NCBI GenBank assembly: GCA_020427625.1
Contig: JAGQOI010000515.1
Span: forward strand, 1 to 30,532
Direction: 5' to 3'
DNA from: Phycisphaerales bacterium
GTDB lineage: Bacteria; Planctomycetota; Phycisphaerae; Phycisphaerales; SM1A02
DNA: 30,532 nt
The notes beneath the pieces were generated by a model. It was given only the letters and a program-made list of their open reading frames with translations. It had not been told where the DNA came from and searched no databases. The first letter of the stretch is position 1; every line of letters begins with the position of its first letter. The position numbers were made by a program, and so were the translations under genes. Positions 5,755-8,517 of this stretch are shown piece after piece.

Positions 5755-6726
5755 TCAGGTCGCGGGATCGTCCGCGGGCCCGATCGCTTCGCGCAGCAGT
5801 CCGAGGAGTCCGACGGTGATGTCGAAGAACTCCGGCGCTCGGCGCGACGCGGTCGCGCTGCCGCCGTGGGCGAGGTCGAAGACGACGCCGCCCGGATGGA
5901 AGGAGACGTCGACGATCTCGTCCCACGGCACCATGATCGCGTCGTCGCCGATGATCGCGTCGTCGTCGTCGTCGGGGTCGATGATGAGACCGTCGGCACA
6001 GACGGCGAAGCCGGTCGTGTCGTCGGACCCGGGCCATTCGCCGGCGGCGGCGAAGACGATCGAGATCGGCGCCGGCACGAGCATCGCGCCGACGAGGCTC
6101 ACGAGGCCGCGCCCGAGCCGCCGGGGCCCGAACCCGTCCGCGGCCGTCGCGGGCAGGCGGACGATGACTTCGGTCCGGAGGCGTGTCCGCAGGCGGGCGG
6201 CGCGACCGGGACACATCGCGACGATGATCGCATCGTACAGCTCGAGATCCGGGCGGACGGGCGGCAGGTGGATGGCGCGGCCACGCCGCGGGCGCACGCG
6301 CACGTGCGCGTCGGGGTACGTGAGCTGGACGTCGGCGATGTCGTCCCAGGGGATGGTGCGGGTGCGTCCGATCGTGGCGAGCACGAGCGCGTGTTCGTGC
6401 AGCCGGATGCGCGTGAGCAGGTCGCGCAGCAGGAGTCGCCCGACGAGCTGGGCGGCGACGATGGCGCCGGTGATCGCGCCGACGAGGACGGGCACGTCGG
6501 AGGATGCGGCGGCGTGCCCGAAGAGCATGGCGACGAGCATGCCGATGCCGCCGCCCGCCATGGCGCAGGCGATGGTCAGGACGGCGGTGACGGCGAGGTA
6601 GAGCGTGCCGATGCGCAGTCGGTTGAACGTCGACCGCCGCAGTTCGACGAGGAGCGGCCCGGGGTCCGGCGCGGCATCGAGGGCGGGATGCGTCAGCGCG
6701 TCGGGATCGGGGGTGAAGTCGGACAT
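5755..6726 (-). CDS. Hypothetical membrane protein with two putative bacterial PH-like domains
   Basis: Hydrophobic pairs each followed by 'RIRLHEHAL...TIPWDDIADV' and 'FAVCADGL...MVPWDEIVDV'. Start uncertain (6726 or 6765). Confidence 0.55.
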   Translation of the reverse strand: MSDFTPDPDALTHPALDAAPDPGPLLVELRRSTFNRLRIGTLYLAVTAVLTIACAMAGGGIGMLVAMLFGHAAASSDVPVLVGAITGAIVAAQLVGRLLLRDLLTRIRLHEHALVLATIGRTRTIPWDDIADVQLTYPDAHVRVRPRRGRAIHLPPVRPDLELYDAIIVAMCPGRAARLRTRLRTEVIVRLPATAADGFGPRRLGRGLVSLVGAMLVPAPISIVFAAAGEWPGSDDTTGFAVCADGLIIDPDDDDDAIIGDDAIMVPWDEIVDVSFHPGGVVFDLAHGGSATASRRAPEFFDITVGLLGLLREAIGPADDPAT

Positions 6727-6860
6727 GGCGGGTGGGATGGAGAGCGGGGGCATGTCCGGAAGCACACCAGAAGGGTAGGCCGCGGCGACGCGAGGCGGGA
6801 TCGCCGAGTTGGGACAGTTCCCGGGACAGTTCCCGGGACAGGTCCCGGAACTGTCCCAGA

Positions 6861-6869
6861 TGTGGATAA
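6861..6869 (-). promoter_or_regulatory. Consensus DnaA box (TTATCCACA on - strand)
   Basis: + strand reads TGTGGATAA. Sequence match only; function not shown. Confidence 0.45.
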
Positions 6870-7011
6870 CTCAGTTTGGGACAGTTCCCGGAACTGTCCC
6901 AAGTCCAGTCTCGACGACATCGGGCGCACCGCGATGGACCTGGTCGTGGGCCGGCGACCTGCCACCCGCGTGCCGAACTCGCGTTGGGACAGGTCCCGGA
7001 ACTGTCCCAAT

Positions 7012-7020
7012 TGTGGATAA
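7012..7020 (-). promoter_or_regulatory. Consensus DnaA box (TTATCCACA on - strand)
   Basis: Second TGTGGATAA, at the same position in the second repeat unit. Sequence match only. Confidence 0.45.
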
Positions 7021-7101
7021 CTCGGTTTGGGACAGTTCCGGGAACTGTCCCAAATGCCGTCCCGACGTGGTCGGGGCGGGCGCCGTGGCGGGAACGGACG
7101 A

Positions 7102-8517
7102 CTACAGCAGGACTTCCGCGCCGGCGTCGATGCGCTCGGGGAGGTCCGCGACGCGGAGGTCGGCGGGGGCGAGGGCCGTGAGCGGGCTGATCTCGATCTT
7201 CGCCGCCGCGCGACCGTCGGCGGTACGGGCGACCGTCACGCCCGCGGACTCGAGCCAGTTCGCGGCCCGGTCGGACTGCAACTGGTGCGAGGTCGCGACC
7301 GAGTCCGTGCCGCTCGCGTTCTTGATCGGCGCGAACTCCTCGACGCGTCCGGTCTCGTAGACGATCGACGACGACGCGAAGGGGATCGCATCGAAGATGA
7401 ACATCTCGAGCTTCACGGCGTTCGCGGCGGCGGGTTCGACGAGCTCGCCACGCTCGTCGACATACGGCACCTTCTTCAGGGCGCGGTGGAACGGGAGCGT
7501 GAGGTCGGACGTCATGCGCTCCACGAAGTCGACGCCGATGAGATGGATCGCGATGGAGCCGGCGTTGAAGGTGAGTCGACCGTCGGGGTTGCGGGCGGCC
7601 GCGAGGGCGGGCGGGAGGTCGGAGTACTCGATCACGGCGGTTCGTCCGTCGACGCGGGCGAAGACGCCGACCTTCTCGTCGGGCCCGGCCTTGGCGACCA
7701 TCTTCGAGGACATCTCGCCGGAACTGTCGGGCGCGCCGACGTGCAGGCCGATGAACAGCGGGTCGACGATGCGCACGAGGGGGTTGTCGACCTGGAAGTA
7801 CGAGATGTGCTCGATCCCCCGAGCGCCCATGTCGGCCAGCGCGCCGCTCGCCCGCAGCGCACGAAGCGCGCCGCCGTGTCCGTCGGGATTGAGGGCGAGC
7901 GCACCCGGTGCGGCGAGGAGCAGTCTGCCCGTCGCAGCGTCGATGGACGGCATCGTGCCCTGGGGGAACATGAAGATGTTGCGGCGGCTCAGACCGAAGC
8001 AGTTGTTGTCCTCGAAGAACCGACGCGTGTCGGCGTCGTTCGCCGGACTCGTCATGATGTACCACGGGATCGTGACGCCGTACGTCTTCCCGGCGGCGGC
8101 GATCTGCTCGGCGAACACGCGAAAGAGCGGCTTGCCCGTCACCACCGTCGCGGGAAACGTGCCCTTCGGACCGTTCCAGCCCAGACGAGTGCCCTGGCCG
8201 CCCGCAACGGTGAACGCGGCGACCTTGCCGGCGCGGATGATCTCGGCGCCCCGCGCGGCGTACGACGCGGCGTTATACGTTCCGGCCGGATCGTGCGGGT
8301 AGTACGGCGCCGGTTCGAGATCGTCGGGCACGGTCACGGGTGTGTCGTGTCGGACGTACCGGTCGATGAGGGCGTCGAGCGCGTCGAAGTCGATGGCGTC
8401 GAGTTCGTCGAGCAGCGCACCGAGCGCGCGGGCGTCGAGCCGGTCGGCGAAGGCGAGGAGATGCGCCTGGCCGTGCTGGGAAAGGACGCGGCGAAGGGTC
8501 TCGAGGCGTTTGGACAT
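7102..8517 (-). CDS. UDPGP type 1 family nucleotidyltransferase (UDP-N-acetylhexosamine pyrophosphorylase-like)
   Basis: 'VAGGQGTRLGWNGPKG', 'IPWYIMTS', 'NPDGHGG', 'YFQVDNPL', 'EKVGV', 'IEYSDL', 'KLEMFIFD', 'EFAPIKNA' are the UAP1/AGX-type motifs. Confidence 0.9.
   Translation of the reverse strand: MSKRLETLRRVLSQHGQAHLLAFADRLDARALGALLDELDAIDFDALDALIDRYVRHDTPVTVPDDLEPAPYYPHDPAGTYNAASYAARGAEIIRAGKVAAFTVAGGQGTRLGWNGPKGTFPATVVTGKPLFRVFAEQIAAAGKTYGVTIPWYIMTSPANDADTRRFFEDNNCFGLSRRNIFMFPQGTMPSIDAATGRLLLAAPGALALNPDGHGGALRALRASGALADMGARGIEHISYFQVDNPLVRIVDPLFIGLHVGAPDSSGEMSSKMVAKAGPDEKVGVFARVDGRTAVIEYSDLPPALAAARNPDGRLTFNAGSIAIHLIGVDFVERMTSDLTLPFHRALKKVPYVDERGELVEPAAANAVKLEMFIFDAIPFASSSIVYETGRVEEFAPIKNASGTDSVATSHQLQSDRAANWLESAGVTVARTADGRAAAKIEISPLTALAPADLRVADLPERIDAGAEVLL

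What the first reader, a model, noticed from the sequence alone, without database searches (positions are those of the whole stretch)
6809..7054. Palindrome / DnaA box / palindrome cassette, duplicated, in a 245-bp element with terminal inverted repeats
Seen: each 68-bp unit is a ~25-bp GGGACAG..CTGTCCC palindrome, a perfect TGTGGATAA, CTC(A/G)GTTT, and a second palindrome. The two units repeat at 151-bp spacing around an 83-bp unique segment. The left end carries two extra 12-mer tandem copies, suggesting slippage. The ends 6809-6822 and 7040-7053 are perfect 14-bp inverted repeats. No target-site duplication is visible. Known: TTATCCACA is the consensus DnaA box, and REP/REPIN elements are palindromic doublets spread by RAYT transposases. 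Inference: a non-autonomous REP/MITE family that carries DnaA boxes between hairpins, which could titrate or recruit DnaA. Alternatively it is an operator array or an RNA stability/termination element downstream of the UDPGP gene.
Basis: partly seen in the sequence, partly recalled or inferred. Interest (0 to 1): 0.66.

Follow-up and report, generated by a model that had tools for sequence, protein, structure and literature searches.

The report
Transposase-linked palindromic repeats carrying DnaA boxes
The cassette is one locus of a genome-wide family of small palindromic repeats tied to a single hairpin-cutting (RAYT/TIRYT-type) transposase gene; this kind of selfish repeat is known, but here its linker holds almost every perfect DnaA-box sequence in the genome.

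Summary
Window 6809-7054 contains four 23-29-bp palindromes (GGGACAGTTCC-S-GGAACTGTCCC), two perfect TGTGGATAA boxes, two extra 12-mer slippage copies and 14-bp inverted ends.

It is not a private operator array and not one 245-bp MITE. The 66-73-bp palindrome-linker-palindrome cassette recurs at about 18 loci of this 2.9-Mb activated-sludge MAG, which is probably Phycisphaerae. The palindrome occurs 44 times, and all copies are intergenic. The 81-83-nt middle segment of the window element is unique in the genome.

The genome's only Y1-HUH transposase gene is flanked by two cassettes in inverted orientation. Its nearest solved structure is E. coli TnpA-REP. Homologues across the class carry GGGACAG-type inverted repeats at fixed distances, matching the published TIRtron/TIRYT layout (RAYT group 1, subclass 2.1).

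21 of the 23 perfect TTATCCACA sites in the genome lie in cassette linkers. One of the other two lies in the putative oriC. The 12-mer TGTGGATAACTC is as invariant as the palindromes within this genome. The orthologous cassette of a sister lineage has a mismatched box.

DnaA binding is plausible but untested. The conserved linker may instead serve mobilisation. This scan has noted DnaA-box-bearing REP-like repeats before on other DNA.

Verdict: a new variant of a known kind, of moderate interest.

The parts
6809..6834 (.). Left end: TT plus two tandem copies of the 12-mer GGGACAGTTCCC (6811-6822, 6823-6834). These are half-palindrome units added by slippage in front of palindrome 1.
   Evidence: family D1, spacing 12, 12. 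Contigs with 0 differences over 6808-6889 and 6812-6902 in runs X2 and X3.
6835..6857 (.). Palindrome 1 core (variant GGGACAGGTCC-C-GGAACTGTCCC).
6858..6877 (+). Linker of cassette A: variable AGA, invariant 12-mer TGTGGATAACTC (6861-6872; DnaA-box 9-mer 6861-6869), variable AGT, then TT.
6878..6902 (.). Palindrome 2 (core 6878-6900, perfect, centre C) plus AA.
6903..6985 (.). 83-nt segment between the two cassettes. It is not repeated anywhere else in the genome, so it is resident intergenic DNA and not part of a mobile unit.
   Evidence: the 81 nt at 6903-6983 give only the self hit.
6986..7008 (.). Palindrome 3 core (same G variant as palindrome 1).
7009..7028 (+). Linker of cassette B: AAT, invariant 12-mer TGTGGATAACTC (7012-7023; DnaA-box 9-mer 7012-7020), GGT, then TT. 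It has the same orientation as cassette A.
   Evidence: In four metagenome runs the only common variant is 7011 T>A, which is the family consensus.
7029..7054 (.). Palindrome 4 (core 7029-7051, perfect, centre G) plus AAA.
7055..7076 (.). Right flank TGCCGTCCCGAC-GTG-GTCGGG: a degenerate half-site-like motif (GCCGTCCCG, also beside cassettes on contig C9) forming a small hairpin. It is probably the remnant of an older copy.
   Evidence: (D2 extends to 7075).
7102..8517 (-). Upstream gene (UDPGP family, 471 aa). Its stop codon lies 47 nt from the element.
5755..6765 (-). Downstream gene (bacterial PH domain, bPH_6). The longest ORF starts at GTG 6765; the first ATG is at 6726. The element lies 44-83 nt upstream of its start.

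Best explanation
The window holds two copies of a 66-73-bp cassette from a dispersed, non-autonomous repeat family of the REP/REPIN/BIME type.

The basic unit is a 23-29-bp palindrome. It consists of two inverted copies of the terminal-inverted-repeat sequence (GGGACAGTTCC) of a RAYT-like Y1-HUH transposase of the TIRYT branch, joined back to back with a one-base loop. Palindromes are strung together by a 15-nt asymmetric linker (TGTGGATAACTC plus three variable bases) into arrays of (palindrome + linker)n with a 43-bp period.

The single transposase gene of the genome sits between two such cassettes in inverted orientation. By analogy with E. coli TnpA-REP and IS200/IS605 enzymes, it is inferred to bind the hairpins on single-stranded DNA and to cut and rejoin next to them, which spreads copies into intergenic DNA, mostly just after stop codons, without target duplications. 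Local slippage or unequal exchange then changes the number of units, which explains the extra 12-mers at 6811-6834.

The perfect DnaA box is part of the linker of the dominant sub-family. It was amplified passively with the repeat. Its invariance within this genome most likely reflects a requirement for mobilisation, because the linker contains a C|T step (AAC|TC) like the linker cleavage sites of E. coli BIMEs. The host DnaA, whose DNA-binding domain is canonical, can probably bind these sites as a by-product.

What is shown: the repeat family, the transposase linkage, the clade-wide co-occurrence, the intergenic placement and the conservation pattern. What is inferred: transposition chemistry, the role of the linker, and DnaA binding.
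For: Family and placement:
- The palindrome occurs 32 times with its TT/AA borders and 44 times as the bare core, and not at all in reversed-pattern controls.
- There are about 18 full cassettes and about 28 multi-site clusters.
- All are intergenic. Many lie 2-30 nt after stop codons, and 6 of 17 classifiable sites lie between convergent genes against a 16% background.
- Contig ends are about 3-fold enriched for the motif.
- Summed contig depth over the cassette is 30-100 times that of the unique flanks in four metagenome runs.

Transposase link:
- The only PF01797 hit in the genome (54 bits) lies between cassettes at C366 7698-7763 and 8444-8509. The asymmetric linker shows these two cassettes are in inverted orientation.
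- The protein has NHVH, WQ, YVERNP and WSS motifs, fitting subclass 2.1 in Table 1 of PMC6006769.
- The Foldseek top hit is 4ER8, TnpA-REP bound to a REP hairpin, E = 1.7e-8.
- NCBIfam REP_Tyr_transpos scores 66.6 bits against 19.2 bits for IS200.

Co-evolution:
- A sister-lineage contig (88% nt identity, RAYT 80% aa identity, dN/dS 0.21, dS 0.57) has the same palindromes, 57/57 nt identical, on both sides of the gene.
- In 26 of 33 homologue loci from other genera, GGGACAG/CTGTCCC lies on at least one side of the gene, typically at about -63 from the start codon and just after the gene. This fits the published GGGGWSAS TIR motif (PMC3733652).
- Four of five relatives checked hold 20-95 such sites, mostly as inverted doublets.

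Linker:
- Variation among 18 cassettes is confined to the 3-nt borders of each palindrome and the centre base. The 12-mer has 1 change in 216 positions.
- E. coli TnpA-REP cuts at C|T in BIME linkers, and the BIME-1 linker carries an IHF site (PMC3333891).
Against: - No transposition event, empty site or insertion polymorphism was seen.
- The palindromes are perfect and lack the GTAG tag and the stem mismatch that E. coli TnpA-REP needs, so the recognition rules must differ.
- The transposase has lost about 25 C-terminal residues to a cassette insertion and could be inactive, although dN/dS of 0.21 argues for function.
- NCBIfam REP_Tyr_transpos is below its cut-off (66.6 against 80 bits).
- The genome is 72% complete and fragmented, so other transposase genes may be missing.
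- The strong invariance of the whole 9-mer box is also what host selection for DnaA binding would produce.
Confidence: 0.85

Rival explanations
1. The family has been co-opted by the host, or exploits the host, through DnaA. The 20 or more dispersed consensus boxes would act as a distributed DnaA sink (datA-like titration). Alternatively, bound DnaA would help open the DNA so that the hairpins extrude for the single-strand transposase.
For: - 21 of 23 perfect TTATCCACA sites in the genome are in cassette linkers, against about 3 expected in total.
- One of the two others lies in the about 500-bp non-coding dnaA-fpg stretch and shares the 10-mer TGTGGATAAC.
- The host DnaA domain IV is canonical, with GGRDHTTV, and aligns to the DnaA-box complex 1J1V at E = 9e-23.
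- The box is invariant in 18 cassettes while adjacent bases vary, and no variant reaches 10% in four metagenome runs.
- Some subclass 2.1 transposases carry a Bac_DnaA_C-like tail (PMC6006769).
- Earlier notes of this scan report DnaA-box-bearing REP-like repeats in other phyla (unchecked).
Against: - The constrained block is 12 nt (box plus CTC), more than DnaA needs.
- The orthologous cassette of the sister lineage has TGTGGATGA and 4 of 15 linker changes, while its palindromes are unchanged.
- Sub-families with another linker (contigs C416, C301) or with no linker (5-nt-loop palindromes, single palindromes) lack any box.
- Homologue loci in 30 other genomes show no enrichment of box-like 9-mers.
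- This transposase has no DnaA_C-like domain.
- There are only 1-2 boxes per locus, unlike datA or DnaA-box clusters.
- No binding data exist.
Confidence: 0.15
2. The cassettes serve chiefly as transcript 3'-end elements, acting as terminators or RNA-stabilising hairpins, and are kept for that reason.
For: - Copies lie mostly right after stop codons and are enriched between convergent genes.
- The transcript of the window element folds far better than shuffles: -159.8 kcal/mol, z = -8.4.
- Such roles are documented for E. coli REPs (PMC3333891 introduction).
Against: - No U-tract follows the hairpins on either strand, and the terminator scan finds none.
- Several copies lie between divergent genes or upstream of genes.
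- This does not explain the transposase linkage or the invariant linker.
- At best it is a secondary effect.
Confidence: 0.1
3. The 245-bp stretch is one MITE with 14-bp terminal inverted repeats.
For: Perfect 14-bp inverted ends.
Against: - The 81-83-nt core is unique in the genome.
- Other composite loci (contigs C9, C37, C357, C359, C443) have unrelated inner segments.
- The inverted ends are an automatic consequence of a palindrome at each end.
- There is no target-site duplication.
Confidence: 0.03
4. An operator array for a local transcription factor controlling the downstream PH-domain gene.
For: Palindromes lie 44-83 nt upstream of a gene start.
Against: - Near-identical copies occur at about 28 unrelated loci, mostly at gene 3' ends.
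- The flanks of the transposase gene carry the same cassette.
- Regulon sites are never this uniform.
Confidence: 0.02

Closest known systems
TIRtrons / TIRYT and their TIR-repeat families (Di Nocera et al. 2013, PMC3733652; subclass 2.1 of Quentin et al. 2018, PMC6006769; RAYT group 1 of Bertels et al. 2017, PMC5581495)
   Same: - A RAYT-like Y1 gene of about 225-240 aa with NHVH / WQ / Y..NP / SS motifs.
- Flanking inverted repeats share GGGGWSAS (here GGGACAG or GGGGACAG) at conserved distances.
- In some genomes the TIR sequence forms moderately abundant families arranged as dimers or clusters. Some are self-complementary, such as the ORF1152 repeats of S. maltophilia.
   Different: - Here the two TIR copies are fused into a perfect palindrome with a 1-nt loop.
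- The palindromes are chained by a conserved asymmetric linker holding a consensus DnaA box.
- The most frequent flanking 16-mer occurs 47 times in a 72%-complete assembly, against a mean of 12 for group 1.
- Quentin et al. found no REP-like sequences for subclass 2.1.
- The host is a Planctomycetota (Phycisphaerae-like) MAG.
E. coli BIMEs, especially BIME-1 (RIB/RIP) with an IHF site in the L linker, mobilised by TnpA-REP (PMC3333891; PDB 4ER8)
   Same: - A mosaic of palindromes and conserved linkers.
- A variable number of tandem units per locus.
- Location at 3' ends of genes.
- The linker carries the consensus site of a host DNA-binding protein.
- The transposase gene is flanked by the repeats (REPtron).
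- The linker contains C|T steps.
   Different: - No GTAG tag and no stem mismatch.
- The palindromes are perfect.
- The host-protein site is a DnaA box, not an IHF site.
- The transposase belongs to another RAYT branch; its sequence does not hit 4ER8, only its predicted fold does.
REPINs of Pseudomonas (Bertels and Rainey 2011, PMC3116915)
   Same: - Two inverted repeats forming a hairpin.
- Non-autonomous, with a single-copy RAYT.
- The whole cassette also folds as one long hairpin with a 16-nt loop.
   Different: - No selection is visible for the long hairpin: the centre bases of the two palindromes are complementary in only 10 of 18 cassettes.
- The RAYT group differs.
DnaA-titrating loci (E. 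coli datA; B. subtilis DnaA-box clusters, PMC2533591)
   Same: Consensus high-affinity 9-mers outside oriC.
   Different: - Those are single loci with clustered boxes and are not mobile repeats.
- Here there are 1-2 boxes per site at 20 or more sites.
- Binding and function are untested.

Membership tests
REP/REPIN with RAYT (REPtron) | Short palindromic repeat present in many dispersed, mostly intergenic copies | tested here: met
   44 palindrome cores in about 28 clusters. All are intergenic except an overlap with the 3' end of the transposase gene.
REP/REPIN with RAYT (REPtron) | Low-copy Y1-HUH transposase gene flanked by the same repeats in inverted orientation | tested here: met
   a single PF01797 gene on C366 with a cassette on each side and the linkers inverted. 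The same arrangement is found in the sister contig L007.
REP/REPIN with RAYT (REPtron) | RAYT-type protein: HUH motif, catalytic Tyr in a Y...NP motif, fold of TnpA-REP | tested here: met
   NHVH and YVERNP motifs. Foldseek top hit 4ER8 at E = 1.7e-8, with core pLDDT 74-83. NCBIfam REP_Tyr_transpos scores 66.6 bits, which is below its 80-bit cut-off.
REP/REPIN with RAYT (REPtron) | GTAG (or CGTC) tetranucleotide at the hairpin foot and an imperfect stem | tested here: not met
   the feet are TTT/AAA and the stems are perfect. It is therefore not filed as a classical GTAG-REP.
REP/REPIN with RAYT (REPtron) | Evidence of mobility (gain or loss of copies between strains) | tested here: inconclusive
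   One search shows many different flanks in metagenome contigs but no clean empty site. Searches show the UDPGP-to-AAA_17 interval differs in gene content in the nearest available relatives, so there is no orthologous site to compare.
TIRtron / TIRYT (subclass 2.1) | Inverted repeats with a GGGGWSAS-like motif at similar distances on both sides of the gene | tested here: met
   GGGACAG/CTGTCCC flanks 26 of 33 homologue loci on at least one side, typically at about -63 and just past the stop. Many read GGGGACAG. In this genome the motif is TGGGACAG, and GGGGACAG on contig C416.
TIRtron / TIRYT (subclass 2.1) | Protein signature NHVH, W[EQ], Y[IV]xxNP, SS motif, median length 238 aa | tested here: met
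   Homologues are 222-240 aa. This copy is 211 aa because a cassette replaced the C-terminal tail.
TIRtron / TIRYT (subclass 2.1) | C-terminal HTH or Bac_DnaA_C-like domain (subgroup 2.1.2 only) | tested here: not met
   no Pfam hit beyond Y1_Tnp in this protein or in six homologues, even at E = 5. The C-terminal part of the model has pLDDT below 50.
BIME-like mosaic | Palindromes joined by conserved linkers, iterated in variable number | tested here: met
   arrays with one, two or three palindromes and one or two linkers at a 43-bp period (contigs C37, C81, C139, C237).
MITE | A defined unit with terminal inverted repeats, a shared internal sequence and target-site duplication | tested here: not met
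   One search shows the inner 81 nt is unique. Searches show no duplication.
DnaA-binding / titration site | Consensus TTATCCACA 9-mer and a host DnaA with a canonical domain IV | tested here: met
DnaA-binding / titration site | Actual DnaA occupancy and an effect on initiation | not testable with these tools
   Needs EMSA or ChIP-seq and genetics. The organism is uncultivated.

The most novel reading that the evidence does not exclude
A TIRYT-mobilised repeat has captured a high-affinity DnaA box and spread it around the chromosome. The family would then work as a distributed DnaA sink, or would use DnaA-driven opening of the duplex to expose its hairpins. That would link a selfish single-strand transposition system directly to replication initiation. 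It would also give a function to the DnaA-like tails seen on other TIRYTs and to the repeated co-occurrence of DnaA boxes with REP-like repeats noted elsewhere in this scan.
Probability: 0.12. Interest if true: 0.75.

Novelty: new variant of a known kind. Interest (0 to 1): 0.5.

Why it matters
REP, BIME and REPIN systems are well studied in Proteobacteria. The large TIR-associated branch of RAYT-like transposases has been regarded as mostly lacking amplified repeats.

Here that branch has a clear, abundant repeat population in Planctomycetota. Its recognition core (GGGACAG) is conserved across a whole class. That makes it a good comparative system for how these enzymes recognise their hairpins.

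The linker supplies about nine tenths of the perfect DnaA boxes in the genome. If DnaA binds them, a mobile repeat would be reshaping the cell's pool of initiator-binding sites. This could be tested with one EMSA and one ChIP experiment.

If DnaA does not bind them, the invariant 12-mer is a candidate transposase recognition or cleavage site, which is also informative.

Tried and rejected
- Rfam scan of 6300-7500: only sub-threshold miRNA-precursor look-alikes, which reflect the long hairpin.
- Exact-pattern scans of genome contigs (twice), metagenome contigs and viral contigs found nothing. The palindrome was also absent from 40 relatives. The exact sequence is therefore lineage-specific, although these collections may leave out near-identical records.
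- phmmer of the transposase against the PDB found nothing. A profile search hit only IS200/IS605 enzymes, and weakly. The link to 4ER8 came only from the predicted fold.
- A DnaA_C-like domain was sought in the transposase clade and not found. The second Bac_DnaA_C hit in the genome is a conserved DnaA paralogue, not a transposase fusion.
- Empty-site test through UDPGP homologues: the best are only 66-68% identical, and the neighbouring genes differ.
- The joint 6902>7025 in Logan contigs was set aside as a repeat-induced shortcut, because its supporting side is under 30 nt.
- No sigma-70 promoter or intrinsic terminator was found in 6600-7250.
- My first guess that the host was an actinobacterium, based on high GC, was dropped. 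Homologues are named Planctomycetota or Phycisphaerae.
- Complementarity of the two centre bases, which would indicate selection for the long hairpin, is random: 10 of 18.

Full report
**What is in the window.** Between the stop of a UDPGP-family gene (7102-8517, minus strand) and the start of a PH-domain gene (5755-6765, minus strand; first ATG at 6726) lie four palindromes built on GGGACAGTTCC-S-GGAACTGTCCC. Their cores are at 6835-6857, 6878-6900, 6986-7008 and 7029-7051.

The palindromes are paired by a 15-nt linker that starts with a perfect TGTGGATAA (6861-6869 and 7012-7020). The two palindrome-linker-palindrome cassettes are 151 bp apart, in the same orientation, around an 83-nt segment. 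Two extra tandem copies of the 12-mer GGGACAGTTCCC precede the first palindrome. The outermost 14 nt are perfect inverted repeats.

The pattern is absent from 100 shuffles. Contigs from two other activated-sludge runs reproduce 6808-6902 without a difference.

**It is a genome-wide family.** The window is contig C408 of a 557-contig, 2.93-Mb, 69% GC assembly that is 72% complete.

- The 13-mer half-site occurs 80 times and the palindrome core 44 times. There are about 28 clusters and 18 complete cassettes.
- With a codon-usage gene caller of my own, all clusters are intergenic. The one exception overlaps the end of the transposase gene.
- Many clusters lie 2-30 nt behind a stop codon. 6 of 17 classifiable sites lie between convergent genes, against 16% of all gene pairs.
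- Units occur as single palindromes, as cassettes, and as longer arrays of palindrome plus linker with a 43-bp period.
- Contig ends are about three-fold enriched for the motif. In four metagenome runs the summed contig depth over the cassette is 30-100 times that of the unique flanks. The assembled count is therefore a lower bound.
- The 81 nt between the two window cassettes occur nowhere else in the genome. Inner segments of other composite loci are unrelated. The 245-bp stretch is two cassettes around resident DNA, not one MITE.

**The transposase link.** The genome has one PF01797 (Y1_Tnp) gene, on contig C366. It has a cassette immediately upstream and another overlapping its 3' end. The asymmetric linker shows that these two cassettes are in inverted orientation.

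- The 211-aa protein has the motifs NHVH, WQ, YVERNP and WSS.
- It scores 66.6 bits on NCBIfam REP_Tyr_transpos, below the 80-bit cut-off, against 19.2 bits on IS200.
- A model of its core (pLDDT 74-83) has E. coli TnpA-REP bound to a REP hairpin (4ER8) as its best structural match at E = 1.7e-8, ahead of the IS608 and ISDra2 transposases.

**The sister lineage.** A JGI metagenome contig from a sister lineage is collinear with C366 at 88% nucleotide identity.

- Its transposase is 80% identical, with dN/dS 0.21 and dS 0.57. The gene is therefore under purifying selection.
- Its palindromes are identical at 57 of 57 positions, while neutral sites have diverged by about 40%.
- Both proteins lack the last about 25 residues of their homologues and end in 14 residues encoded by the cassette. 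A cassette therefore inserted into the gene's 3' end before the two lineages split.

**The clade.** Homologues (44-57% identity) occur in 137 of 301 genomes sampled from the same class. This tally includes one unpublished genome, G311, on which no other claim rests.

- In 26 of 33 loci examined, GGGACAG or its complement lies on at least one side of the gene, typically about 63 nt before the start codon, followed by a TTGACA, and again just after the gene in inverted orientation. The consensus is close to AAATAGGGACAGTCACCTATTT.
- Some loci have doublets of the two orientations around a short loop.
- Four of five relatives checked hold 20-95 such sites, mostly as inverted doublets, against 1-7 for the reversed control pattern.
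- This matches the TIRtron/TIRYT layout of Di Nocera et al. 2013, with its GGGGWSAS TIR motif and moderately abundant TIR families organised as dimers or clusters (PMC3733652).
- The protein signature and length match subclass 2.1 of Quentin et al. 2018, which equals RAYT group 1 of Bertels et al. 2017 (PMC6006769; PMC5581495).
- The 29-bp palindrome of this genome is thus a TIR doublet whose loop has shrunk to one base. That explains why the centre base is C or G at random.
- Names attached to homologous proteins point to Planctomycetota, mostly Phycisphaerae or Phycisphaerales.

**The DnaA box.** Perfect TTATCCACA occurs 23 times in the genome, against about 3 expected from base composition.

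- 21 copies lie in cassette linkers.
- One lies behind radA.
- One lies in the about 500-bp non-coding stretch between dnaA and fpg. That stretch also holds two imperfect boxes and an AT-rich patch and is probably oriC. It shares the 10-mer TGTGGATAAC with the cassettes.
- The host DnaA has a canonical DNA-binding domain, including GGRDHTTV. High-affinity binding to double-stranded cassettes is therefore plausible.

Among 18 cassettes the palindrome cores and the 12-mer TGTGGATAACTC are practically invariant, with one change in the 12-mer. The three bases on each side of every palindrome vary in 1-9 copies. In four metagenome runs no variant in the box reaches 10%.

Several facts argue against a DnaA-specific constraint.

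- The conserved block is longer than the box.
- The sister lineage's orthologous cassette reads TGTGGATGACTG.
- Sub-families with a different linker, or with 5-nt-loop palindromes, have no box.
- Box-like 9-mers are not enriched beside the transposase gene in other genera.
- This transposase has no DnaA_C-like domain. The second Bac_DnaA_C hit in the genome is a DnaA paralogue conserved in all 25 relatives searched, which lack the cassette.
- E. coli TnpA-REP cuts BIME linkers at C|T (PMC3333891), and the invariant block contains AAC|TC. A mobilisation role for the linker is therefore at least as likely.

**Structure and other roles.** As single strands each cassette folds into one long hairpin of 27-28 pairs, with the 12-mer in a 16-nt loop (-24 and -32 kcal/mol, z = -6.4 and -10.5). 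The whole element is very stable as RNA (z = -8.4). The centre bases of the two palindromes are complementary in only 10 of 18 cassettes, so the long hairpin is not visibly selected. There is no U-tract and no promoter-like site. Termination or RNA stabilisation can only be a side effect.

**Comparison and novelty.** The system works like REP/BIME/REPIN repeats with their RAYT. It belongs with the TIR-repeat families of TIRYTs, not with GTAG-tagged REPs, because the tag and the stem mismatch are absent. The nearest functional analogy for the linker is BIME-1, whose conserved linker carries an IHF site.

I found no paper in the searched library that describes REP-type repeats carrying DnaA boxes. 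Quentin et al. explicitly noted that TIRYT inverted repeats do not resemble DnaA boxes, even though some TIRYTs carry DnaA-like tails.

Earlier notes of this scan report DnaA-box-bearing REP-like repeats in Patescibacteria and actinobacteria. They are unchecked leads, but the recurrence keeps the DnaA reading alive.

I rate the finding a new variant of a known kind, with moderate interest.

Noticed in passing
own genome G000, not in the window: e.g. C12:1751-1937, C92:5692-5888, C120:387-674, C260:4955-5172: A second, unrelated repeat family holds the most frequent 16-mers of the genome (53-54 copies). It has the core TTCACCACGGAGGCACGGAGG followed by another CACGGAG. All copies but one are intergenic. 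They often occur as inverted pairs 120-290 bp apart, which looks like the ends of a true MITE.
   Followed up: partly
L054 (G000 C271:5656-5802); also C291, C158, C443, C92, C556: A sister sub-family uses the same GGGACAGTTCC arms with a 5-nt loop (9 copies). It is followed by a conserved tail of about 60 nt (CATCCAAC...CATCGC...) and has no DnaA box. Most copies sit at contig ends.
   Followed up: partly
L053 (G000 C416:4058-4143) and C301:1695-1807: Cassettes with a different linker (about 17 nt, GGTGTTGGAACAAGTG-like) in place of the DnaA-box linker. The palindrome is therefore the common module and linkers are exchangeable.
   Followed up: partly
L005:1234-1275 (G000 C366) and L007:686-728: The transposase reading frame runs into the downstream cassette. 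The last 14 residues (..WDSSGNCPKCG) are cassette-encoded and replace the basic tail GSDRFIAKLE..GRPRK of homologues. The sister lineage shares this, and dN/dS is 0.21.
   Followed up: yes
L045:1-252 (G000 C514): The C-terminal fragment of a second protein with a DnaA domain-IV-like module (43.9 bits, motif RRNHSTA instead of GRDHTTV). It is conserved in all 25 relatives searched as an open frame of about 480-1,070 codons. This looks like a DnaA paralogue typical of the order.
   Followed up: partly
L006:811-880 (G000 C374, upstream of dnaA): Three tandem copies of a 24-25-nt unit (GCATGTCCCGCGAATCACGCGGTT) lie about 150 nt upstream of the dnaA start. Their function is unknown.
   Followed up: no
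L006:2517-3020 (G000 C374:18462-18965): A 500-bp non-coding stretch between convergent dnaA and fpg. It holds one perfect and two imperfect DnaA boxes and an AT-rich patch and is probably oriC. dnaN is not adjacent.
   Followed up: partly
G000 C1:8064-8095, C218:2996-3027, C308:4573-4602: A further module (GATTCCCGAC, 8-10 nt, TCGGAT) precedes the palindrome at several loci. In C1 and C218 its preceding TGA is the stop codon of the upstream gene, so the repeat may have reshaped gene ends.
   Followed up: partly
window 5755-7101 versus L055, L056: In the nearest available relatives the interval between the UDPGP gene and the AAA_17 fusion gene holds different genes: glycerate kinase plus a VTT-domain gene in one, ferritin in the other. 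It does not hold the PH-domain gene. This is a variable spot in an otherwise syntenic PhoU-UDPGP region.
   Followed up: no
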